A stretch of DNA of 57,779 bases from a virus (lineage: Duplodnaviria; Caudoviricetes), in the IMG/VR virus record IMGVR_UViG_3300036770_004266, positions 1 to 57,779 of that record. One strand, 5' to 3'. Shown piece by piece: positions 1-10,935 of this stretch (positions are counted from its first letter, which is position 1; the number at the start of each line of letters is the position of its first letter). The notes under the pieces were generated by a model that saw nothing but the letters and a program-made list of their open reading frames with translations, was not told the DNA's origin and did no database searches. Position numbers and translations under genes: made by a program.

Positions 1-23
1 CCAAATGCGATACAAACCACCAG

Positions 24-135
24 ACCATATTGAAGTGTATTACATGCGGCGAACCCATCTGCCGCTTTCATTATTGATCGCTACTGTGTTCCCGGGACAC
101 TTCGCAGAGGCCTCCGTAATACACTTCAATATGGT
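24..135 (-). ncRNA. Candidate structured RNA closed by a 20-bp perfect stem, immediately 3' of tRNA-Tyr
   Basis: ACCATATTGAAGTGTATTAC (24-43) is the exact reverse complement of 116-135; internal hairpins GCGGC/GCCGC and GTGTTC/GGACAC. Confidence 0.5.
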
Positions 136-216
136 GGGTGGCCAGGGACTCGAACCCCGTATGCCAATGGCGCCAGATTTACAGTCTGGTGCAGTAACCT
201 GTTCTGCTCGCCACCC
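132..216 (-). tRNA. tRNA-Tyr(GTA)
   Basis: Cloverleaf; anticodon arm CCAGA-CTGTAAA-TCTGG, long variable arm, GTTCGAGTC T-loop, encoded CCA. Confidence 0.95.
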
Positions 217-219
217 ATG

Positions 220-296
220 TGGCACACCGTAGGGGATTTGAACCCCTGATCTTCTCCGTGAAAGGGAGATGTCCTAGGCCGCTAGACGAACGGTGC
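220..296 (-). tRNA. tRNA-Glu(TTC)
   Basis: Anticodon arm TCTCC-CTTTCAC-GGAGA, GTTCAAATC T-loop, CCA. Confidence 0.95.
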
Positions 297-308
297 ATGA
301 AACTTAAA

Positions 309-321
309 TTATTAAAGAACA
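309..321 (-). promoter_or_regulatory. boxA-like antitermination site
   Basis: TGTTCTTTAATAA versus E. coli rrn boxA TGCTCTTTAACAA, between a sigma70 promoter and tRNA-Glu. Confidence 0.55.
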
Positions 322-341
322 ATTTTAACTGCTATATTATT

Positions 342-370
342 ATAATATAGCCTATCCTACACTTTGTCAA
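342..370 (-). promoter_or_regulatory. sigma70-type promoter for tRNA-Glu/Tyr
   Basis: TTGACA-N17-TATTAT(AAT). Confidence 0.75.
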
Positions 371-383
371 GCAAAAACTATAC

Positions 384-409
384 TATGTTGGTGAGTGCTT
401 ACCAACATA
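384..409 (-). terminator. Hairpin, possible terminator or processing stem
   Basis: 9-bp stem TATGTTGGT/ACCAACATA; T-tract is offset, so the terminator call is weak. Confidence 0.35.
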
Positions 410-412
410 CTG

Positions 413-490
413 AGAGCCCCTAGCACCGGATTTGTCGGATTTTGGAGGTCTTACCCTGGAGGATTCTGGGGATCCTGTCCTAGGGGCTCT
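413..490 (-). ncRNA. Candidate small structured RNA downstream of tRNA-Cys
   Basis: 11-bp perfect closing stem AGAGCCCCTAG/CTAGGGGCTCT around a GC-rich interior. Confidence 0.4.
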
Positions 491-495
491 ACGAA

Positions 496-573
496 TGGAA
501 GTGCGGGTGGGATTCGAACCCACGGTATCGCAGTTTTGCAGGCTGCTGCATTTGACCACTCTGCCACCGCACT
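496..573 (-). tRNA. tRNA-Cys(GCA)
   Basis: Loop CTGCAAA, GTTCGAATC T-loop, U73 discriminator, CCA; C-A mismatch at 31:39. Confidence 0.92.
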
Positions 574-619
574 ATTGAACGTTATCTCTGATCCACTTCC
601 AGTATTCTGAAGCTTCCAT
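572..619 (-). CDS. Possible 15-aa peptide MEASEYWKWIRDNVQ
   Basis: AGGAG at 626-630 upstream of ATG; stop overlaps the tRNA-Cys 5' end; not in the ORF track. Confidence 0.3.
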   Translation of the reverse strand: MEASEYWKWIRDNVQ

Positions 620-629
620 TTTTCTCTCC

Positions 630-637
630 TATAAATA
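630..637 (+). promoter_or_regulatory. T4-type late promoter
   Basis: TATAAATA 5 nt before the J-domain gene ATG. Confidence 0.7.
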
Positions 638-642
638 TTAGT

Positions 643-1260
643 ATGGATCTATACCAAGAATTAGAATTACCGCAAGACTGTTCCTTTGAAGAAATCAAAC
701 AACAGTATCGAATCCTTGCCCGTGTTCACCATCCCGACATGGGAGGTGATCCTGAAAAGTTTAAAAAAATAAAATTAGCCTATGAGGTTCTAAGTGATCC
801 GGTACGAAGGACCGAATACGACAAGACAGGTAACACCCAAAAATCAATAGACATTCGCCACAGGGCAATGTCCGATATTTCTCAAATGTTTTTTAGAATG
901 ATGCCCCACTTCAATCCTAGGGGACAGGGCAATATTCTTTTTGATATCAAAAAAGAAATACAAGATTCCAAACAAGCAATAAAAACCGACATAGAAATAT
1001 GTCGTACATTCATTACCAATTTAGAACTTGCCAAAACAAAGATACGCAAAAAGACCGATAACATCGAAGGTGATAATATCTTTCTAGGTTTTATTGATAA
1101 GCAATTAGAAAGTAGAAATGCCGAACTATCTAACTTTAAAAATAGAATAGAAGTACTCGATGATATGATAAAAATACTTGAGGAATATCACTATGGATTC
1201 CTTGAAATAAAAAATGCCCCCACCGATGGGGGAGGATTTAAACATGATGGCGGAGGCTGA
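643..1260 (+). CDS. DnaJ-domain (J-domain) protein
   Basis: DLYQELEL...HHPDMGGDPEKFKKIKLAYEVLSDPVRRTEYD J-domain with HPD; coiled-coil C-terminus. Confidence 0.9.
   Translation: MDLYQELELPQDCSFEEIKQQYRILARVHHPDMGGDPEKFKKIKLAYEVLSDPVRRTEYDKTGNTQKSIDIRHRAMSDISQMFFRMMPHFNPRGQGNILFDIKKEIQDSKQAIKTDIEICRTFITNLELAKTKIRKKTDNIEGDNIFLGFIDKQLESRNAELSNFKNRIEVLDDMIKILEEYHYGFLEIKNAPTDGGGFKHDGGG
1209..1232 (-). terminator. Intrinsic terminator ending the 13-tRNA operon
   Basis: CCCCCA-TCGG-TGGGGG-CA-TTTTTT just downstream of tRNA-Ser(GCT), inside the antisense J-domain CDS. Confidence 0.7.
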
Positions 1261-1336
1261 GGGATTCGAACCCTCGCGACCTGTTAAGGACGACGGTTTA
1301 GCAAACCGCTGCATTTGACCACTCTGCCAAACCTCC
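1248..1336 (-). tRNA. tRNA-Ser(GCT)
   Basis: Loop TTGCTAA, long variable arm, G73, CCA. Confidence 0.95.
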
Positions 1337-1337
1337 A

Positions 1338-1445
1338 TTAGTCGCACCAGGTTTTGTATGGATTAGTAAACATTACACAATCCAAAACTTCCCCGGTGCC
1401 GATTAAAACTGTTGCAAATAAAAATAACCCTACTAAAGATTTCAT
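1338..1445 (-). CDS. 35-aa hydrophobic peptide MKSLVGLFLFATVLIGTGEVLDCVMFTNPYKTWCD
   Basis: Fills the spacer between the two tRNA-Ser genes; AAGGA RBS; signal-like N-terminus; two Cys; not in the ORF track. Confidence 0.55.
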   Translation of the reverse strand: MKSLVGLFLFATVLIGTGEVLDCVMFTNPYKTWCD

Positions 1446-1456
1446 ACTTTCCTTTC

Positions 1457-1546
1457 TGGAAGAAGCGGTGGGATTCGAACCCACGGACCCTTTCGGACCG
1501 ACAGTTTTCAAGACTGTTCCAATAAACCGGACTCTGGCACGCTTCC
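1457..1546 (-). tRNA. tRNA-Ser(TGA)
   Basis: ACAGT-CTTGAAA-ACTGT, long variable arm, CCA. Confidence 0.95.
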
Positions 1547-1551
1547 ATAAC

Positions 1552-1628
1552 TGGCACCACCTAGAAGATTCGAACTCCTAACCCCTTGGTCCGTAGCCAA
1601 GTGCTCTGATCCGTTGAGCTAAGGTGGT
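1552..1628 (-). tRNA. tRNA-Arg(ACG)
   Basis: CTTGG-CTACGGA-CCAAG, CCA. Confidence 0.95.
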
Positions 1629-1629
1629 A

Positions 1630-1706
1630 TGGTGCCCCAGGCGAGATTCGAACTCGCAAGATTTAGTTTCTAAGACTAACATGTATACCAATTCCATCAC
1701 CGGGGC
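1630..1706 (-). tRNA. tRNA-Leu(TAG), short variable loop
   Basis: TTAGT-CTTAGAA-ACTAA, Leu-type D arm, A73, CCA; only 77 nt. Confidence 0.9.
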
Positions 1707-1710
1707 ATAT

Positions 1711-1784
1711 TGGTCCTTCCTGATGGTTACGATCCACCGTCTCGCGGTTATCAGCCGCGTGCTCTACCATTGAGCTAAGGAAGG
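1711..1784 (-). tRNA. tRNA-Ile(GAT)
   Basis: CGCGG-CTGATAA-CCGCG; atypical T-loop ATCGTAA; CCA. Confidence 0.9.
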
Positions 1785-1791
1785 AATGTTC

Positions 1792-1867
1792 TGGTCCCGA
1801 CTCCTGGTTACGCTCCAGGCTCTCATGCTCTTCAGGCACGCGCTATCACTAGGTCAGCTGAGTCGGG
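1792..1867 (-). tRNA. tRNA-Phe(GAA)
   Basis: CGTGC-CTGAAGA-GCATG; atypical T-loop AGCGTAA; CCA. Confidence 0.85.
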
Positions 1868-1868
1868 C

Positions 1869-1943
1869 TGGAGCTCTCAACAAGAATCGAACTTGTATCT
1901 CTCGCATACCAAGCGAGTGTAATAACCGTTATACTATGGGAGC
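1869..1943 (-). tRNA. tRNA-Thr(GGT)
   Basis: CTCGC-TTGGTAT-GCGAG, CCA. Confidence 0.9.
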
Positions 1944-1948
1944 GAATC

Positions 1949-2025
1949 TGGTGGCGATGGTTGGATTCGAGCCAACGATCTTCTCCGTATGAAGGAGCTG
2001 CATTAAACCGCTATGCTACATCGCC
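1949..2025 (-). tRNA. tRNA with CAT anticodon (elongator Met or Ile2)
   Basis: Loop TTCATAC; paired G1-C72 argues against initiator; CCA. Confidence 0.85.
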
Positions 2026-2100
2026 TGGTGCATCGTGATGGATTCGAACCACCGACCTCTTTCTTGTAAGGAAAGCCTTCTACCGCTGAATTAACGATGC
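2026..2100 (-). tRNA. tRNA-Val(TAC)
   Basis: CTTTC-CTTACAA-GAAAG, CCA. Confidence 0.95.
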
Positions 2101-2105
2101 ATGTC

Positions 2106-2181
2106 TGGGGTGTAGGACGAGACTCGAACTCGCAACGACTGGAATCACAATCCAGGGCTCTGCCATTGAGCTACCAACACC
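2106..2181 (-). tRNA. tRNA-His(GTG)
   Basis: CTGGA-TTGTGAT-TCCAG, encoded G-1 and C73, CCA. Confidence 0.95.
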
Positions 2182-2187
2182 ATTGTT

Positions 2188-2262
2188 TGGCCTCGCCGCC
2201 CAGAATCGAACTGAGATCTAAACCTTAGGAGTGTCTTGTTCTATCCATTGAACTACGGCGAG
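2188..2262 (-). tRNA. tRNA-Arg(CCT)
   Basis: Loop CTCCTAA, imperfect anticodon stem, CCA. Confidence 0.88.
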
Positions 2263-2269
2263 AAGAATT

Positions 2270-2410
2270 AGTGACGGTTACCGATAGATCCCATCGCAGC
2301 CGACAAGCGTTGAGCCCCTACGGTAGCTAGACCGTAGACTTGATGAGCGGCCACTCATCTAGAATGCTAGTTAACGACCGGCCAGTCGTCCCTGTTGCAT
2401 TAGACTGCTT
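2270..2410 (-). ncRNA. Candidate multi-hairpin ncRNA with palindromic loops
   Basis: Hairpins at 2374-2389, 2342-2359, 2318-2337, 2282-2296; closing helix GCAGTC/GGCTGC; no credible ORF. Confidence 0.6.
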
Positions 2411-2415
2411 TGACT

Positions 2416-2491
2416 TGGTAGGGGCGACAGGGATCGAACCTGCGACCAACCGGTTAAAAGCCGGATGCTCTACCTACTGAGCTACACCCCC
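2416..2491 (-). tRNA. tRNA-Lys(TTT)
   Basis: CCGG-CTTTTAA-CCGG, CCA. Confidence 0.95.
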
Positions 2492-2521
2492 AAGCAAAAA
2501 TACACCGAATGCACTTTTGTT

Positions 2522-2595
2522 TGGAGGGGGTGTCAAGATTCGAACTTGAACTGAATGAGTCAAAGTCACTAGTGCTGCCGTTACACTACACCCCT
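2522..2595 (-). tRNA. tRNA-Gln(TTG)
   Basis: AGTGA-CTTTGAC-TCATT, 1:72 mismatch, CCA. Confidence 0.92.
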
Positions 2596-2713
2596 CTGTA
2601 TCCGAATTTTACTCGCACGTTATCGCCGATGCTTTCATCCTCGGTGCCGCCCGTTAGGACCTTTTATATAGCGCCGTCACTCACCCTCGTTGCGTTTAGC
2701 GCTTACTACCAAC

Positions 2714-2742
2714 AAAAAACCCAGGTCTCTCGATCCTGGGTT
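2714..2742 (-). terminator. Attenuator terminator upstream of the tRNA operon
   Basis: AACCCAGG-ATCGAGAGA-CCTGGG-TTTTTT. Confidence 0.85.
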
Positions 2743-2780
2743 AGTTAAAATTACTTGTTGCGAATAGTTTTAACTAACCC
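2738..2780 (-). promoter_or_regulatory. Antiterminator hairpin, mutually exclusive with the terminator
   Basis: 13-bp perfect stem GGGTTAGTTAAAA/TTTTAACTAACCC; left arm contains the leader stop codon, right arm shares AACCC with the terminator left arm. Confidence 0.8.
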
Positions 2781-2874
2781 TTGGCCACTCCTTTGATGTT
2801 CCAATAAAATCATAGGCATGGCGCGATACCATTGGCTGGCCTAGATTTAAATTGGGTATACAACTATAGAACAT
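2770..2874 (-). CDS. Leader peptide (34 aa) containing all 20 amino acids
   Basis: AGGAG at 2880-2884, ATG at 2874; MFYSCIPNLNLGQPMVSRHAYDFIGTSKEWPRVS. Confidence 0.8.
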   Translation of the reverse strand: MFYSCIPNLNLGQPMVSRHAYDFIGTSKEWPRVS

Positions 2875-2894
2875 AACTTCTCCTGTTAAAAAAT

Positions 2895-2934
2895 TATTTA
2901 TAATAATAGTACAGTCTAGATACAACTTTGTCAA
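2895..2934 (-). promoter_or_regulatory. Tandem sigma70 and T4 late promoters of the leader/tRNA operon
   Basis: TTGACA(2929-2934)-N17-TACTAT(2906-2911); TATAAATA at 2895-2902. Confidence 0.8.
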
Positions 2935-3221
2935 GCATTTTGTAAAACTTTTTCTTCCTTGAACACATCGGACCATGTCCGTAACTTAGTGTTCTTTTGA
3001 TCCTTTGCCTGTAGCACACGATCAATGTCTATCATACCTTCTTCGATCATCAAATCAATCATACACAAAAGATCGCCCGTTTCTTCCTCCAAGCGTTCCT
3101 TATTTGTCTGACCGTTATACTTATCCGTCACACCAAATCGAAATACTTTACTGATTGCTTGGATCACTTCTGCACATTCTTCCTGCGCAATCAACATCAC
3201 TTCTTTCTGTTTACTATTCAT
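2931..3221 (-). CDS. MazG-like NTP pyrophosphohydrolase
   Basis: QEECAEVIQAISK...LEEETGDLL acidic metal-binding motifs. Confidence 0.75.
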   Translation of the reverse strand: MNSKQKEVMLIAQEECAEVIQAISKVFRFGVTDKYNGQTNKERLEEETGDLLCMIDLMIEEGMIDIDRVLQAKDQKNTKLRTWSDVFKEEKVLQNA

Positions 3222-3235
3222 ATATCCTCATCATT

Positions 3236-3255
3236 AAAAAAGGGGCCGAAGCCCC
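3236..3255 (-). terminator. Intrinsic terminator
   Basis: GGGGC-TTCG-GCCCC-TTTTTT. Confidence 0.85.
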
Positions 3256-3259
3256 GTAA

Positions 3260-3646
3260 TTATACGAGTGCTGCGCCCAACTCTTTAATCAGCAAATCGT
3301 CATCCTTTTCTTCTTCCTTGATCCTTTTCTCTACAGATTTAATCTTAGCAGAAGTCTTCTGTACTGGTGCTACCGCAACCTTTGGAGCCTTAACCTTCGA
3401 CGTCGCATTGGTCACTTTCTTGTTCATGGTCTCAGTAATGAGATCGGTGTAATTAGCAAACACTCCACCCACATCTAGGAGATGCGCGCAAGCCTCAGCC
3501 TTAGACATTGGGCGAGGAAGCTCGATAAGCTCTAGGGGAGAATGCCCACCCTTAGCTAGCAACTTCGTGCGGGAAACAATGTCGTTTGCGAAGCGAACCT
3601 TGGTAACACCATTTTGTGTCGAAACACCGGCAACTGTAAAAGTCAT
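3260..3646 (-). CDS. Hypothetical early protein
   Basis: 128-aa ORF with GAGGAG RBS, own promoter and terminator. Confidence 0.8.
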   Translation of the reverse strand: MTFTVAGVSTQNGVTKVRFANDIVSRTKLLAKGGHSPLELIELPRPMSKAEACAHLLDVGGVFANYTDLITETMNKKVTNATSKVKAPKVAVAPVQKTSAKIKSVEKRIKEEEKDDDLLIKELGAALV

Positions 3647-4277: not shown

Positions 4278-4306
4278 ATTATAAAGCCATTTGGTCAGTT
4301 TGTCAA
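4278..4306 (-). promoter_or_regulatory. Consensus sigma70 early promoter
   Basis: TTGACA-N17-TATAAT. Confidence 0.9.
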
Positions 4307-6655: not shown

Positions 6656-6917
6656 TAATTGCCTTCCTTAGAATATCCTCTAGAATCCAACCCATGTCTT
6701 TTTGAAAGTCTGGATCCTCCGACATATACTTTTCCATCATATTCTCGGGATGATGCACTACGGTATAATCCAATTGAAGATTCGAATCATCTTCTTCCTT
6801 GAGATTAATATCATTGAAGGATATAACCGTATTGGCAAACTTGCCTTCTAAGATTCGAACGCCCCAAACAGTTTGTTCTTCTTTTTCAAATCCCCAAGGC
6901 TCATACTTCACTTGCAT
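6609..6917 (-). CDS. Hypothetical protein at the T4 gp40 position
   Basis: 102-aa acidic ORF between uvsX and gp41, overlapping both. Confidence 0.7.
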   Translation of the reverse strand: MQVKYEPWGFEKEEQTVWGVRILEGKFANTVISFNDINLKEEDDSNLQLDYTVVHHPENMMEKYMSEDPDFQKDMGWILEDILRKAINEHENRESNSTKSDK

Positions 6918-8449: not shown

Positions 8450-10935
8450 TCGAATAATCCTTCTAAAGATGCCGTTGGTTTTGCCGACCAACCAATACCT
8501 TCAAGAATAGTATTGATTGGTTCTAAAAATGACTTGCTAAACATCATATCATAATCTGCAAACTTTTTGATGTTTAACTCGCTAGGAATACTGGAAACGA
8601 ATGCAATACAATTTTCGCCTATAGTATTTGGTTCTCTCAAGTAAATGAATTTTATTTTGTCACCTTCTTTGATAGTTTCATATTTCTTATTCAATTTATT
8701 TGTGACTAAATGATGATTATATAACAGGGCACCTCGAACGTGCATTGGAGTAGCACTTTTATATATACTTGCCTTGTCAGAATATTTATCTAATCCGTTG
8801 ACGCCCCTAGGAAAAGAAATTTGTTCCGGTTCTAATTTTCTATACTTTTCCTCAAAGTTTCGTACATATTCCTGTAGTTCATTCTCAGTCTTTGTCAGTA
8901 TAATTTTAACTGCATCTCTCAGGGCATCACGTACGGGTTCAGGCGTAGATGACCTAACAATTTCTAATCCCATAACCTTTAGTTTAGGTTCGGCATATTG
9001 CACACCCTCATTATTATATACGTTAAGGGCATATCTTTTCTTTGCTACCCAAATTCCCCTATCCGCAATAACTTCTCGTTTAAAGGATATCCTGTTATCA
9101 AAGGCATTAGTGTAATCGGCAATTTTGTTACTTGCCTTATCTAAAAATGATTCAATCTTCTCGTCACAAACCTTATCTAATATTTTAACTAGCTTATCGG
9201 TTTTCACCCCAGTATAAAACTTATTCACCAGCGGATCCAATGTGATATAACAGGCATCAGTATCAGAATAAAAAGAATATAGATAATCCTTAGTACCACA
9301 AATCTTATTTAAAGTATCATTCAAAGTCTTGCCCATGGATTGAATAATATACTGACCTGTCAGGGTAATGCCTTCTGCAATACGATCGTCATAAAATCTA
9401 AAGTACTCATTCGCCATGGCACCGAATAAAGAATTCATTTGAATCTTTCTTGCCATCTGAAAATTATTATACTTGGATATGTCTTTTTTATAATTAGGAT
9501 CCTTAGTCTCCTCATACTTCTGCTGAGCTTCAAGCATCGACTTCTTATACTTCTTTCTATCATTAAATAACTTCTCAACAATCTCAGGAAAGATGCCCTG
9601 CTTCTCTCGGGTAAAGCAATAACCATTTGCCGTCATACAATGGTTAGTTTCTTTCAGGTCATCCAGATTCAATGACCCCTCAATCAATTTACTCATACCA
9701 ATATCTTTTGCATTACCATTGACCATAGTCTCAGGAGACAAATTATATTGCATAATGATACTAGGATATAGGCTTGTCGCATCAAATGATACTACCCAAT
9801 TATACTGACCTGGTTTTGGTTCTTGAACATATGCACCGGCAATTTGCCTGCTCTGCCTACCTTCTCTCTGATGGACAACGATATCTTTATTCCATAGGTG
9901 ATTATAAAGAATACAATCCCAAGTCCTAACTGCGGAAAAGATATCAATATAATTACACTTGGCATCATATGCCATTGTCAGGATGAGTTCAATTAACTTC
10001 ATCTTATCCTCAAGCTCATCTACAATCTCAACGTCTCGAATATTATAGTCCACAAACTTCTGCCAATCGCTATTCCAAAATTCTGTGAAGGAACCATACT
10101 CATCGTATGACAATTTTTGCTTGCCCAATTCTACCTTTGCAATATGATCTAGCTTGTAGGATTCTTGAGCATTATATGTAAACTTCTTATACAGATCTAA
10201 ATAGTCCAGAATAGCAACGCCCATCAATTCAAAGGATACATTCTCTTTCTTTAATTTGATAATATTCTTTCTTGCAACATTGCCCCACGGAGAAAGTTTC
10301 TTGACCGCATCTTCGCCGAGTATTTTTTCTATACGATTACATAGATAAGGTATATCGAAAAACTCAACATTCCAACCTGTTATGATGTGGGGATAGTCTT
10401 CCGAAAAATCTTCTAAGAATGTTTTAAGTAAGTGTGCCTCGTCCCTACATTGGACATAGTTAACATCATCTCTGCTATTTTGATATTCCTTTAAACCATA
10501 CGTCTTGAGCTGTTTAGTTTGATTATCCTGTATGGTTATTAGCAGTACTTTTTCTGTTGGGTTACTAACATCGGGAAATCCGTCGTCTGCAGATGTCTCG
10601 ATGTCTAGGGTCCAAATCTTAATCTGCGATATATCAAATTCTATTTCATTCGGAAAGGTGTCTGTAATATATTGATAAGCATAATTTGTATTACCGAAGA
10701 TGGGAAAATTGTCCACATCTCGGTATCTTTGAACAAAATCCTTGGCCTCATTGATGTCCTCAAACTGTACGGTATCGAGGCATTCTCCGTAAATAGATTT
10801 GTACTTCGTTTCTTGTTGAGATTTAACAAAAAGAATGGGCTTGAACCTAACCCTATCTAACACGTTTTTGCCATTATTAATACCCCGAACCAGGATATTA
10901 TTGCCATATTGATTAACACTAGTGTAAAATTTCAT
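8446..10935 (-). CDS. gp43: Family B DNA polymerase (T4 gp43-like)
   Basis: DIET exonuclease motif, SFDATSLYPSII, KIQMNSLFG, YSDTD. Confidence 0.98.
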   Translation of the reverse strand: MKFYTSVNQYGNNILVRGINNGKNVLDRVRFKPILFVKSQQETKYKSIYGECLDTVQFEDINEAKDFVQRYRDVDNFPIFGNTNYAYQYITDTFPNEIEFDISQIKIWTLDIETSADDGFPDVSNPTEKVLLITIQDNQTKQLKTYGLKEYQNSRDDVNYVQCRDEAHLLKTFLEDFSEDYPHIITGWNVEFFDIPYLCNRIEKILGEDAVKKLSPWGNVARKNIIKLKKENVSFELMGVAILDYLDLYKKFTYNAQESYKLDHIAKVELGKQKLSYDEYGSFTEFWNSDWQKFVDYNIRDVEIVDELEDKMKLIELILTMAYDAKCNYIDIFSAVRTWDCILYNHLWNKDIVVHQREGRQSRQIAGAYVQEPKPGQYNWVVSFDATSLYPSIIMQYNLSPETMVNGNAKDIGMSKLIEGSLNLDDLKETNHCMTANGYCFTREKQGIFPEIVEKLFNDRKKYKKSMLEAQQKYEETKDPNYKKDISKYNNFQMARKIQMNSLFGAMANEYFRFYDDRIAEGITLTGQYIIQSMGKTLNDTLNKICGTKDYLYSFYSDTDACYITLDPLVNKFYTGVKTDKLVKILDKVCDEKIESFLDKASNKIADYTNAFDNRISFKREVIADRGIWVAKKRYALNVYNNEGVQYAEPKLKVMGLEIVRSSTPEPVRDALRDAVKIILTKTENELQEYVRNFEEKYRKLEPEQISFPRGVNGLDKYSDKASIYKSATPMHVRGALLYNHHLVTNKLNKKYETIKEGDKIKFIYLREPNTIGENCIAFVSSIPSELNIKKFADYDMMFSKSFLEPINTILEGIGWSAKPTASLEGLFE

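What the first reader, a model, noticed from the sequence alone, without database searches (positions are those of the whole stretch)
2770..2874. Leader codons sample separate isoacceptor families and match the downstream tRNAs
SEEN: 29 distinct codons in 34. Repeated residues mostly switch decoding family: Leu TTA/CTA, Ser AGT/TCG/TCA, Arg CGC/AGG, Ile ATA/ATT, Gly GGC/GGA, Pro CCC/CCA, Val GTA/GTT, and initiator plus internal ATG. The array carries matching Arg(ACG) and Arg(CCT), Ser(GCT) and Ser(TGA), Leu(TAG), Ile(GAT), Val(TAC) and a CAT tRNA. One mismatch: the leader Thr codon ACA is not read by Thr(GGT). tRNAs for Asn, Asp, Gly, Pro, Ala and Trp are absent from this window and may lie left of it. 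INFERENCE: selection acts on tRNA-species coverage rather than peptide function.
Basis: partly seen in the sequence, partly recalled or inferred. Interest (0 to 1): 0.85.

Follow-up and report, generated by a model that had tools for sequence, protein, structure and literature searches.

The report
All-amino-acid leader before phage tRNAs
A tiny phage gene that uses every one of the 20 amino acids sits in front of a switchable transcription stop signal and a block of tRNA genes, which looks like a device that turns on the phage's own tRNAs when protein synthesis in the host slows down.

Summary
The minus-strand ORF 2874..2770 has 34 sense codons, 29 of them distinct, and lies upstream of 15 tRNA genes.

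The real oddity is that the 34 residues include all 20 amino acids (P about 0.0016). Given the peptide, codon diversity is ordinary (P 0.33). The match to the downstream tRNAs is not significant (P 0.15).

The ORF has its own sigma-70-type promoter and a Shine-Dalgarno site. It is followed by an intrinsic terminator. A 13-bp antiterminator covers the stop codon with its 5' arm and shares bases with the terminator in its 3' arm. The two folds are isoenergetic.

The same layout precedes tRNA arrays in uncultured freshwater myovirus contigs. I found 66 distinct leaders of 34-57 codons: 43 have all 20 amino acids, 21 have 19, and 2 have 18. Peptide sequences diverge freely, while coverage is kept.

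Best reading (0.6): a ribosome-mediated attenuator that senses overall decoding capacity and gates a tRNA operon. I found no description of it in print. No expression or functional data exist.

The parts
2931..3221 (-). Upstream gene (96 aa), used here as a synteny anchor. I call it MazG-like from recall only; no family search was run on it.
   Evidence: ORF listed. Its relatives were fetched. In relatives L024, L042, L046, L048 and L055 its stop overlaps the start of the small ORF.
2906..2934 (-). Sigma-70-type promoter: TTGACA, 17-nt spacer, TACTAT. It gives a predicted start near 2899. A TATAAATA motif lies at 2902-2895.
   Evidence: scores it 10 of 12. The same GCTTGACA-type sites occur at 4306, 3718 and 370. 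The motif positions were read.
2880..2884 (-). Shine-Dalgarno AGGAG, 5 nt before the ATG.
   Evidence: Read.
2770..2874 (-). Leader ORF: 34 codons plus TAA, containing all 20 amino acids and 29 distinct codons.
2768..2780 (-). Antiterminator 5' arm (13 nt). It covers the last three sense codons and the stop codon.
   Evidence: duplex -18.0 kcal/mol, z -5.6 against shuffles.
2751..2767 (-). Antiterminator loop. It holds the only four variant positions listed for this element in near-identical relatives (2756, 2759, 2760, 2761).
   Evidence: tables 3 and 8.
2738..2750 (-). Antiterminator 3' arm. Its last 3-4 nt are also the first bases of the terminator 5' arm.
2714..2740 (-). Intrinsic terminator: stem CCCAGG/CCTGGG (2740-2735 with 2725-2720), 9-nt loop, and a run of six U (2719-2714).
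   Evidence: The simple scanner missed it because its loop limit is 8.
2596..2713 (-). Spacer between the terminator and the first tRNA. No consensus promoter was found. It is variable among close relatives.
   Evidence: no site listed there; table 3 (22 of its listed variant rows lie at 2605-2709).
132..2595 (-). Array of 15 tRNA genes, Gln(ttg) first. It runs to within 131 nt of the contig end.

Best explanation
The 34-codon ORF is the leader of a ribosome-mediated transcription attenuator that gates the phage's tRNA operon.

Proposed sequence of events (all of it inferred from anatomy):
1. Transcription starts at the early-type promoter near 2899, and a ribosome loads at the SD/ATG.
2. If the ribosome reaches the TAA in time, it covers the antiterminator's 5' arm (2780-2768).
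3. The shared bases are then free to complete the terminator (2740-2720), and RNA polymerase stops at the U-run before tRNA-Gln.
4. If decoding is slow or stalls at any codon, the antiterminator forms first. It removes half of the 6-bp terminator stem, and transcription runs on into the tRNA genes.

Because the leader holds every amino acid, mostly once or twice, a shortage of any charged tRNA would raise phage tRNA output. So would a general slowing of elongation, for instance after host tRNA loss during infection or cleavage by host defences.

Shown here: the anatomy, its recurrence before tRNA arrays, the statistical excess of amino-acid coverage, and the lack of peptide-level constraint.

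Inferred only: translation of the ORF, the direction of the switch, and the signal that is sensed.
For: Anatomy in the window:
- Promoter, SD and ORF.
- Antiterminator duplex of -18.0 kcal/mol, z -5.6, with 0 of 300 shuffles as good.
- The terminator and antiterminator conformers are at -20.2 and -20.5 kcal/mol.
- The whole leader folds with z -2.8.

Recurrence:
- The same antiterminator/terminator overlap (4-5 nt) occurs in 13 of 13 analysed members. The stop codon lies inside the 5' arm or up to 13 nt after it. z ranges from -4.4 to -6.3 and the arm sequences differ between groups.
- The two conformers are within 3.4 kcal/mol in 13 of 13.
- Control: of 26 terminator-like sites, only the 5 family elements have z of -4.3 or lower. 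The other 21 range from -3.7 to +0.9.
- Within 48 aligned family-A elements the antiterminator helix is 90.6% paired, against 28-64% when slid. The two free terminator pairs covary, with 38 double-changed cells and 99.7% paired.

Position:
- 46 of 50 unique elements with at least 700 nt downstream have a same-strand tRNA within 700 nt (median 55 nt, Gln(ttg) first in 42).
- The 4 misses are L243, L245, L249 and L251. Three are terminator look-alikes without the ORF, and L249 is cut upstream so its ORF status is unknown.
- Complete arrays hold 12-27 tRNAs for 11-20 amino acids.

Coverage:
- Window P 0.0016. Other groups P 0.003-0.02 under both phage and uniform codon usage.
- Of the 52 distinct family-A peptides, 32 have 20 kinds and 20 have 19.
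- Column shuffles give a mean of 6.6 sequences with 20 kinds, against 32 observed (0 of 5000 shuffles reach it).
- In 801 kb, 20 of the 32 all-20 ORFs of 25-50 codons belong to this family.

No peptide constraint. No Pfam, PHROG or Rfam match.

Near-identical relatives in runs from three studies:
- The long contig pieces over the ORF carry 0-1 differences there.
- The four best-supported differences sit in the antiterminator loop.
- 141 variant rows were not shown.
Against: - There is no expression, ribosome or termination data. The runs laid were DNA contigs only.
- Several relatives have strong sigma-70-like promoters between the terminator and the first tRNA: L002, L023, L042, L046, L048 and L055, and L253, L254, L260, L263 and L267. 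There the array does not depend on read-through alone.
- I found no convincing anti-antiterminator (1:2) pairing. Untranslated transcripts should therefore read through. With isoenergetic conformers the dynamic range is unknown.
- A profile of the family-A peptides does not detect the window's peptide or those of groups B and C (E above 0.7 in a 245-sequence set). The window's link to the family is therefore by architecture, not demonstrable homology.
- 23 of 66 leaders lack one or two amino acids; Val is missing in 15.
- Family members are phylogenetically related, so per-sequence P values and the shuffle tests are not independent. The re-supply count is inflated by alignment shifts.
- In group B the ORF overlaps the stop of the upstream gene, so it could be an ordinary coupled small gene.
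Confidence: 0.6

Rival explanations
1. The antiterminator/terminator pair is a real switch, but it is set by something other than a translating ribosome, such as a phage or host protein, a tRNA, or a small molecule. The open frame would then be secondary.
For: - The switch itself is well supported.
- The ORF region is strongly structured in groups A and B, with a conserved hairpin whose arm sequences differ between groups.
- The conserved peptide motifs of family A coincide with RNA arms.
Against: - It does not explain why the frame stays open for 34-57 codons in all 66 leaders, with a start signal or a coupled start.
- It does not explain why the stop codon always sits at the antiterminator 5' arm.
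- It does not explain why amino-acid coverage is kept at 18-20 kinds while the sequences change.
- There is no Rfam match, T-box included.
Confidence: 0.17
2. The ORF encodes a small functional protein, and the hairpins are simply the end of its transcription unit. The position next to tRNA genes and the 20-amino-acid content would be incidental.
For: - A promoter, SD and terminator flank the ORF.
- Family A keeps motifs such as LPL.SGW and GFGK.
- Some members were called as hypothetical proteins by public pipelines.
Against: - Differences between relatives are mostly non-synonymous and spread evenly over codon positions.
- There is no family match.
- Peptide groups are not alignable with each other, yet all keep the architecture and the coverage.
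- An ordinary terminator needs no overlapping antiterminator. None of 21 other terminator-like sites has one.
Confidence: 0.08
3. The attenuator works as proposed, but its main product is the terminated short RNA or the peptide, as with attenuator-derived small RNAs. Alternatively it insulates the tRNA operon from upstream transcription and does not tune tRNA supply.
For: - Relatives have their own promoters after the terminator.
- Attenuator-derived sRNA and leader-peptide functions are on record for rnTrpL/peTrpL. For PMC6614838 and PMC7968998 I saw only the search listing and abstracts.
Against: - In the window and in many family-A members no consensus promoter lies between the terminator and the first tRNA. 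The median gap is 55 nt.
- 46 of the 46 ORF-bearing elements that could be checked sit directly before tRNA arrays.
Confidence: 0.1
4. A chance ORF in this window: the 20-amino-acid content and the hairpins are coincidence.
For: There are 86 other small ORFs of 30-40 codons in the window.
Against: P is 0.0016 for coverage. Together with z -5.6 for the antiterminator, the recurrence of both features in 66 leaders before tRNA arrays, and near-invariance in relatives from three studies, chance is very unlikely.
Confidence: 0.02

Closest known systems
Leader-peptide transcription attenuators of amino-acid operons and of pheST (trpL, hisL, pheL, thrL, leuL, ilvL, pheM). The mechanism is established textbook knowledge, recalled here. 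For pheL (PMC3082878), and for the his-leader speed assay (PMC4046918), I saw only the search listing and abstracts.
   Same: A short ORF in the 5' leader. An intrinsic terminator before the regulated genes. An antiterminator that overlaps the terminator. A leader stop codon placed so that a terminating ribosome blocks the antiterminator. The proposed outcome (a stall gives read-through) is the same.
   Different: - Known leaders are enriched in codons of the one to three amino acids they report. This one spreads over all 20, with no runs.
- The regulated genes are tRNAs, not biosynthetic enzymes or a synthetase.
- It is phage-borne.
- No clear 1:2 anti-antiterminator was found.
- Many relatives appear leaderless.
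T-box riboswitches (Rfam RF00230; the mechanism is recalled).
   Same: A terminator/antiterminator decision tied to tRNA status, upstream of genes of the translation apparatus.
   Different: A T-box reads one uncharged tRNA directly through a specifier codon and needs no translation. No T-box or other Rfam family matched 1-3300 at E up to 1 apart from tRNAs and weak chance hits. The element here is built around an ORF.
Phage tRNA arrays as a counter to host tRNA loss: PMC10264068, PMC11555353, PMC11464382 and PMC11726456. I saw the search listing and abstracts. For PMC10264068 I also ran a term search of the main text.
   Same: Large phage tRNA sets, proposed or shown to replace host tRNAs that are depleted or cleaved during infection. 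This supplies a rationale for need-based control.
   Different: Those papers concern what the tRNAs do. In the two that I searched (PMC10264068 and PMC13015707), none of the terms tried occurs: attenuat, leader and terminator in both; promoter and upstream in the first; 'small ORF' and 'upstream of the tRNA' in the second. No regulatory leader is described there.

Membership tests
Leader-peptide (ribosome-mediated) transcription attenuator | Short ORF with translation start signals in the transcript leader | tested here: met
   ATG at 2874 with AGGAG 5 nt upstream and a promoter at 2934-2906. The frame is open in all 66 distinct relatives' leaders. Translation itself is not shown.
Leader-peptide (ribosome-mediated) transcription attenuator | Intrinsic terminator between the leader ORF and the regulated genes | tested here: met
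   A 6-bp GC-rich stem plus a run of six U at 2740-2714, 119 nt before tRNA-Gln. Present in 13 of 13 analysed members.
Leader-peptide (ribosome-mediated) transcription attenuator | Antiterminator mutually exclusive with the terminator | tested here: met
   13 of 13 members, z -4.4 to -6.3, overlap 4-5 nt. Conformers are within 3.4 kcal/mol. Absent from 21 other terminator-like sites.
Leader-peptide (ribosome-mediated) transcription attenuator | Leader stop codon placed so that a terminating ribosome masks the antiterminator's 5' arm | tested here: met
   The stop lies inside the arm in the window, L023, L002, L024, L095 and L042. It lies 3 nt after the arm in six group-B members and 13 nt after it in L052.
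Leader-peptide (ribosome-mediated) transcription attenuator | Enrichment or runs of codons for the amino acid(s) whose supply is reported | tested here: not met
   No residue occurs more than 4 times in 34, and nine occur once. The signal is maximal coverage instead.
Leader-peptide (ribosome-mediated) transcription attenuator | Upstream segment (region 1) that pairs with the antiterminator's 5' arm, or a pause hairpin | tested here: inconclusive
   Hairpins occur inside the ORF. Only a 4-5 bp candidate 1:2 pairing was seen, and only in one subgroup. None was seen in the window.
Leader-peptide (ribosome-mediated) transcription attenuator | Read-through responds to the supply of charged tRNA | not testable with these tools
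   This needs reporter assays or coupled in vitro assays.
T-box riboswitch and other curated RNA families | Match to the family covariance model | tested here: not met
   only tRNAs reach their gathering scores on 1-3300. Nothing lies on 2596-2900.
Known small phage protein families | Profile match in PHROGs or Pfam, or relatives in protein libraries beyond this locus type | tested here: not met
   (best E 0.09 and 0.1). Searches returned only the same leaders plus three long proteins (134-1,930 aa, E 1e-7 to 8e-4), matched in several short stretches, which I did not examine and set aside as chance or low-complexity hits.

The most novel reading that the evidence does not exclude
Phages carry a universal decoding sensor. 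It is a minimal ORF that samples all 20 amino acids, often on a leaderless transcript so that the first ribosome trails RNA polymerase from the first base. Timely completion of this ORF shuts off a near-complete phage tRNA operon. Delay at any codon would switch the tRNA set on. Such delay could come from host tRNA decay after shut-off, from anticodon nucleases or other tRNA-cleaving defences, or from starvation. This would make tRNA arrays an inducible counter-defence, not a constitutive supplement.
Probability: 0.4. Interest if true: 0.92.

Novelty: new variant of a known kind. Interest (0 to 1): 0.85.

Why it matters
Why phages carry tRNA genes has been argued for decades. Recent work points to replacement of host tRNAs lost or cleaved during infection (abstracts of PMC10264068, PMC11555353 and PMC11464382). 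How tRNA arrays are controlled is essentially unstudied.

A leader that reads out all 20 amino acids would be the first attenuator built to sense general translation capacity instead of one amino acid. It would show that tRNA arrays can be expressed on demand.

The element is small: promoter, about 35 codons, two hairpins. It uses standard bacterial signals, so it can be tested in a laboratory strain. It could also serve as a compact reporter of elongation speed or of the depletion of any single tRNA.

Tried and rejected
- Close relatives among cultured phages: none. blastn of the window region found only tRNA-Gln matches. tblastn of the peptide found nothing below E 5. blastn of the L023 and L046 elements found no match.
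- Closest relatives by the upstream gene (up to 70% identity, L083 and L085) lack the ORF and the tRNAs at that position. The window therefore has no close homologous locus in the two collections.
- The peptide alignment was too weakly conserved for the search for related loci, and the 34-aa query was too short.
- Protein libraries gave only 8 and 6 hits. Apart from three unexamined long-protein matches, they were members of the same family.
- An exact ORF-core pattern found only the three contigs already known.
- The idea that codon choice tracks the phage's own tRNAs was rejected as unsupported.
- The idea that the window's synonymous codons are unusually diverse was rejected. It does hold in one subgroup of relatives (P 0.0003-0.04, not independent).
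- Both-box use for Arg and Ile is not universal across groups.
- L183 has a 65-aa ORF with all 20 amino acids before a tRNA group but without the hairpin layout. I did not count it.
- Sequencing runs: only DNA contigs were laid, so nothing can be said about RNA ends or levels. A joint at 2781/2886 in contigs of X2 and X5 may be a relative with a replaced ORF, or another organism.
- Supplementary files of papers were not consulted.
- Complex prediction and structure prediction were not used, because the claim does not rest on a protein.
Full report
**What the window is.** The window is a complete viral contig record of 57,779 bases, estimated 32% complete. Its DnaB-type helicase is about 60% identical to those of T4-like cyanophages and of Methylophilales phage Melnitz. 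Nearly all long ORFs lie on the minus strand (49 of 54). ARAGORN and Rfam agree on 15 minus-strand tRNA genes between 2595 and 132, starting with Gln(ttg).

**Checking the observation.** The minus-strand ORF 2874..2770 translates to 34 residues plus TAA. The tRNA list and the Thr ACA/GGT mismatch are also right. The sequence to the left of position 1 does not exist in the record.

Against 14,025 34-codon windows from 54 long ORFs of this phage, 29 or more distinct codons occur in 0.65%. That occurs in 0.16% of those windows and in none of 86 other small ORFs of 30-40 codons. Once the peptide is fixed, 29 distinct codons is ordinary (27.8 expected, P 0.33). The signal therefore lies in amino-acid kinds, not in synonymous choice.

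**Anatomy in the window.** All features below are on the minus strand.
- The upstream 96-aa gene ends at 2931.
- A promoter (TTGACA, 17-nt spacer, TACTAT) spans 2934-2906. It is one of four sites in the first 5 kb that share a GCTTGACA core.
- AGGAG lies 5 nt before the ATG.
- After the TAA come two overlapping hairpins. A 13-bp antiterminator pairs 2780-2768, which includes the last three sense codons and the stop, with 2750-2738.
- Its last bases are also the start of the terminator stem CCCAGG/CCTGGG (2740-2735 with 2725-2720), which is followed by six U.
- The antiterminator duplex is -18.0 kcal/mol. None of 300 shuffles of the upstream segment does as well (z -5.6).
- With either helix enforced, the segment folds to -20.2 kcal/mol (terminator) or -20.5 kcal/mol (antiterminator).
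- The leader as a whole folds better than all 200 shuffles (z -2.8).
- No consensus promoter lies between the terminator and tRNA-Gln. From this side, therefore, the array must be reached through the terminator.

**Relatives found through the upstream gene.** Using the upstream gene as an anchor, I fetched 80 viral and 80 metagenome loci. Most have ordinary genes after it. In L024, L042, L046, L048/L049 and L055, however, the gene is followed at an ATGA overlap by a 34-42-codon ORF, then a terminator, then a tRNA array. In L002 and L023/L026 a similar unit with its own promoter precedes a tRNA array elsewhere. L052 has another. All of these ORFs have 18-20 amino-acid kinds.

An unbiased count over 801 kb and 5,958 ATG-ORFs of 25-50 codons found 32 with all 20 kinds. 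Twenty of the 32 are this unit. Of the other 12, all but one are 43-50 codons long.

**Relatives found through the terminators.** Two pattern scans were built on the relatives' terminators, with the inner stem pairs left free. They gave 72 unique elements.
- 60 family-A elements carry an ORF.
- These give 52 distinct peptides of 36-45 residues: 32 with 20 kinds, 20 with 19, and none lower.
- Val is the missing kind in 15 of them.
- Adding the other groups and the two extra peptides from the protein search gives 66 distinct leaders: 43 with 20 kinds, 21 with 19, and 2 with 18.
- Per-sequence probabilities are 0.0016-0.02 for the 20-kind leaders, under either phage or uniform codon usage.
- The family-A leaders were retrieved by their terminator, not by their content.

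**Position relative to tRNAs.** Of 50 unique elements with at least 700 nt downstream, 46 have a same-strand tRNA within 700 nt (median 55 nt; Gln(ttg) first in 42, as in the window). The four without are L243, L245, L249 and L251. Three are terminator look-alikes that lack the ORF, and L249 is cut at its upstream end, so its ORF status is unknown.

Of 24 unique tRNA-group starts seen earlier, 14 were preceded by the unit. The rest were mostly internal groups of longer arrays. Arrays that end inside a locus have 12-27 tRNAs for 11-20 amino acids, and three cover all 20.

**The switch is conserved, not only the ORF.**
- In 13 of 13 analysed members an antiterminator (-15 to -25 kcal/mol, z -4.4 to -6.3) overlaps the terminator by 4-5 nt. 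The stop codon lies in its 5' arm or 3-13 nt after it.
- The arm sequences differ completely between groups.
- The two conformers are within 3.4 kcal/mol in all 13.
- Whole-leader minimum-energy folds flip between the two conformers from member to member.
- Of 26 terminator-like sites in the window and 60 loci, only the five family elements show such a helix.
- In an alignment of 48 family-A elements the antiterminator is 90.6% paired, against 28-64% when the partner is slid.
- In the same alignment the two unconstrained terminator pairs covary, with 38 double-changed cells.

**Is the peptide under selection?** The evidence says no.
- Differences between relatives fall evenly on codon positions: L024 against L095, 0/4/0; L046 against L055, 6/6/8; L023 against L002, 17/12/17.
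- The groups cannot be aligned with each other.
- A profile of family A does not find the window's peptide or those of groups B and C.
- No Pfam, PHROG or protein-library relatives exist beyond the leaders themselves. The only other hits are three long proteins, which I did not examine.

**Coverage is nevertheless kept.**
- In family A, Tyr occurs exactly once in all 52 sequences but in five alignment columns. His occurs once in 51 sequences, in three columns. Cys occurs once in 49, in five columns.
- Shuffling residues within columns lowers the number of 20-kind sequences from 32 to 6.6 (0 of 5000 shuffles reach 32).
- Along a minimum spanning tree, single-copy residues changed 97 times and the kind was present elsewhere in the neighbour 86 times, against 28 expected.
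- Both of the last two tests are inflated by relatedness, and the second by alignment shifts as well. I take them as support, not as probabilities.
- One concrete case: L048 lacks the two codons that hold L046's only Asp, and has Asp where L046 has Gly.

**Codons and tRNAs.** Under standard wobble rules the window's leader has 18 codons readable by the 15 phage tRNAs, against 15.7 expected (P 0.15). For ten relatives with complete arrays, 80-93% of leader codons are readable, but that is close to expectation (P 0.02-0.7; sum 335 against 318.7, not independent).

Leu and Ser use both codon boxes in all 56 distinct family-A ORFs. Arg does so in 44, and Ile uses ATA plus ATH in 52. For Leu and Ser this is expected at their copy numbers. 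For Arg and Ile it is not universal across groups.

**Close relatives of the window itself.** Twenty public runs hold parts of 2300-3300. I laid contigs of four runs from three studies.
- Pieces covering the ORF carry 0-1 differences there. X3 record 12 spans 2718-2913 with 4 other letters, and the four listed differences at 2756-2761 fall within its span. X2 record 5 spans 2762-2966 with 1. X4 records 19 and 21 carry 0 and 1. Shorter pieces from X5 (records 28 and 29), which reach only the first 8-12 bases of the ORF, carry 3-6.
- The four best-supported differences in the element (2756, 2759, 2760, 2761) all lie in the antiterminator loop.
- The spacer 2596-2713 shows many differences.
- 141 further variant rows were not shown, so this is an indication, not a full count.

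**Start signals.** In many family-A members the -10 hexamer ends 6 nt before the ATG. L258 has a 12-of-12 promoter ending at 9969 with the ATG at 9976. L256 has its hexamer ending at 6744 with the ATG at 6751. By eye, 12 of the 14 elements printed are of this kind. These leaders would be leaderless mRNAs. The window and a few others have an SD-led leader.

**Mechanism.** The layout is that of a classical leader-peptide attenuator. A ribosome that reaches the stop codon masks the antiterminator's 5' arm, the terminator forms, and transcription ends. A ribosome delayed anywhere upstream leaves the antiterminator intact, and polymerase continues into the tRNAs.

Two things differ from known cases. 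There is no enrichment for particular codons; instead every amino acid is sampled. And I see no strong region-1 partner, which in a trp-type design restricts sensing to stalls at a few codons. Without it, a delay at any codon should count, which fits an all-amino-acid leader.

The steps from anatomy to function are inferred. Promoters after the terminator in several relatives show that read-through is not the only route to tRNA expression there.

**Prior knowledge.** Five full-text searches that combined phage or viral tRNA terms with leader, attenuator, terminator or small-ORF terms found no description. A sixth search retrieved current papers on phage tRNA function. In the two that I searched, PMC10264068 and PMC13015707, none of the terms tried (attenuat, leader, terminator and others) occurs in the main text. 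The library lacks most subscription journals, and supplements were closed. 'Not in print' therefore means not found in these searches.

**Verdict.** The element is best filed as a new variant of ribosome-mediated attenuation.

Noticed in passing
window 643-1260 (+): A 205-aa ORF lies inside the tRNA array on the opposite strand and overlaps tRNA-Ser (1248-1336) by 13 nt. It has a J-domain-like N-terminus, including an HPD motif. The label is recalled from the translation; no family search was run.
   Followed up: no
window 2263-2415, 1785-1868, 1337-1456, 297-495 (-): Gaps of 84-199 nt inside the tRNA array with no tRNA call and no Rfam family. They could hold unrecognised small RNAs or degenerate tRNAs.
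   Followed up: no
window 4306, 3718, 2934, 370 (-): Four promoter-like sites share an extended GCTTGACA core and a 17-nt spacer (sequence). This looks like the phage's early promoter consensus.
   Followed up: partly
L258:9941-9978, L256:6716-6753 and other family-A loci: The -10 hexamer ends 6 nt before the leader ATG, so these leaders would be translated from leaderless transcripts.
   Followed up: partly
L023:5860-5885, L046:4570-4595, L258 after 10155; window about 2600-2625: A short A/T-rich box (TCTTTAAAAATT-like) recurs 10-25 nt before the first tRNA of the arrays. It could be a processing or start signal.
   Followed up: no
L183:4951-5148: A promoter, SD and 65-aa ORF with all 20 amino acids precede a tRNA-Ala group, without the overlapping-hairpin layout. 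It may be a different solution or may be chance.
   Followed up: no
L243, L245, L251: The group-B terminator sequence recurs with no small ORF upstream and no tRNA within 3 kb downstream.
   Followed up: partly
window 2781-2886: Contigs of runs X2 and X5 join 2781 to 2886, skipping 104 nt that hold most of the leader ORF; what lies between is not known (table 5). This may be a relative with a replaced leader.
   Followed up: no
window 1949-2025 (-): Read by eye, the tRNA with anticodon CAT has a paired first acceptor position (G1-C72). It therefore does not look like a bacterial initiator. Whether it is an elongator Met or an Ile2-type tRNA was not resolved.
   Followed up: no
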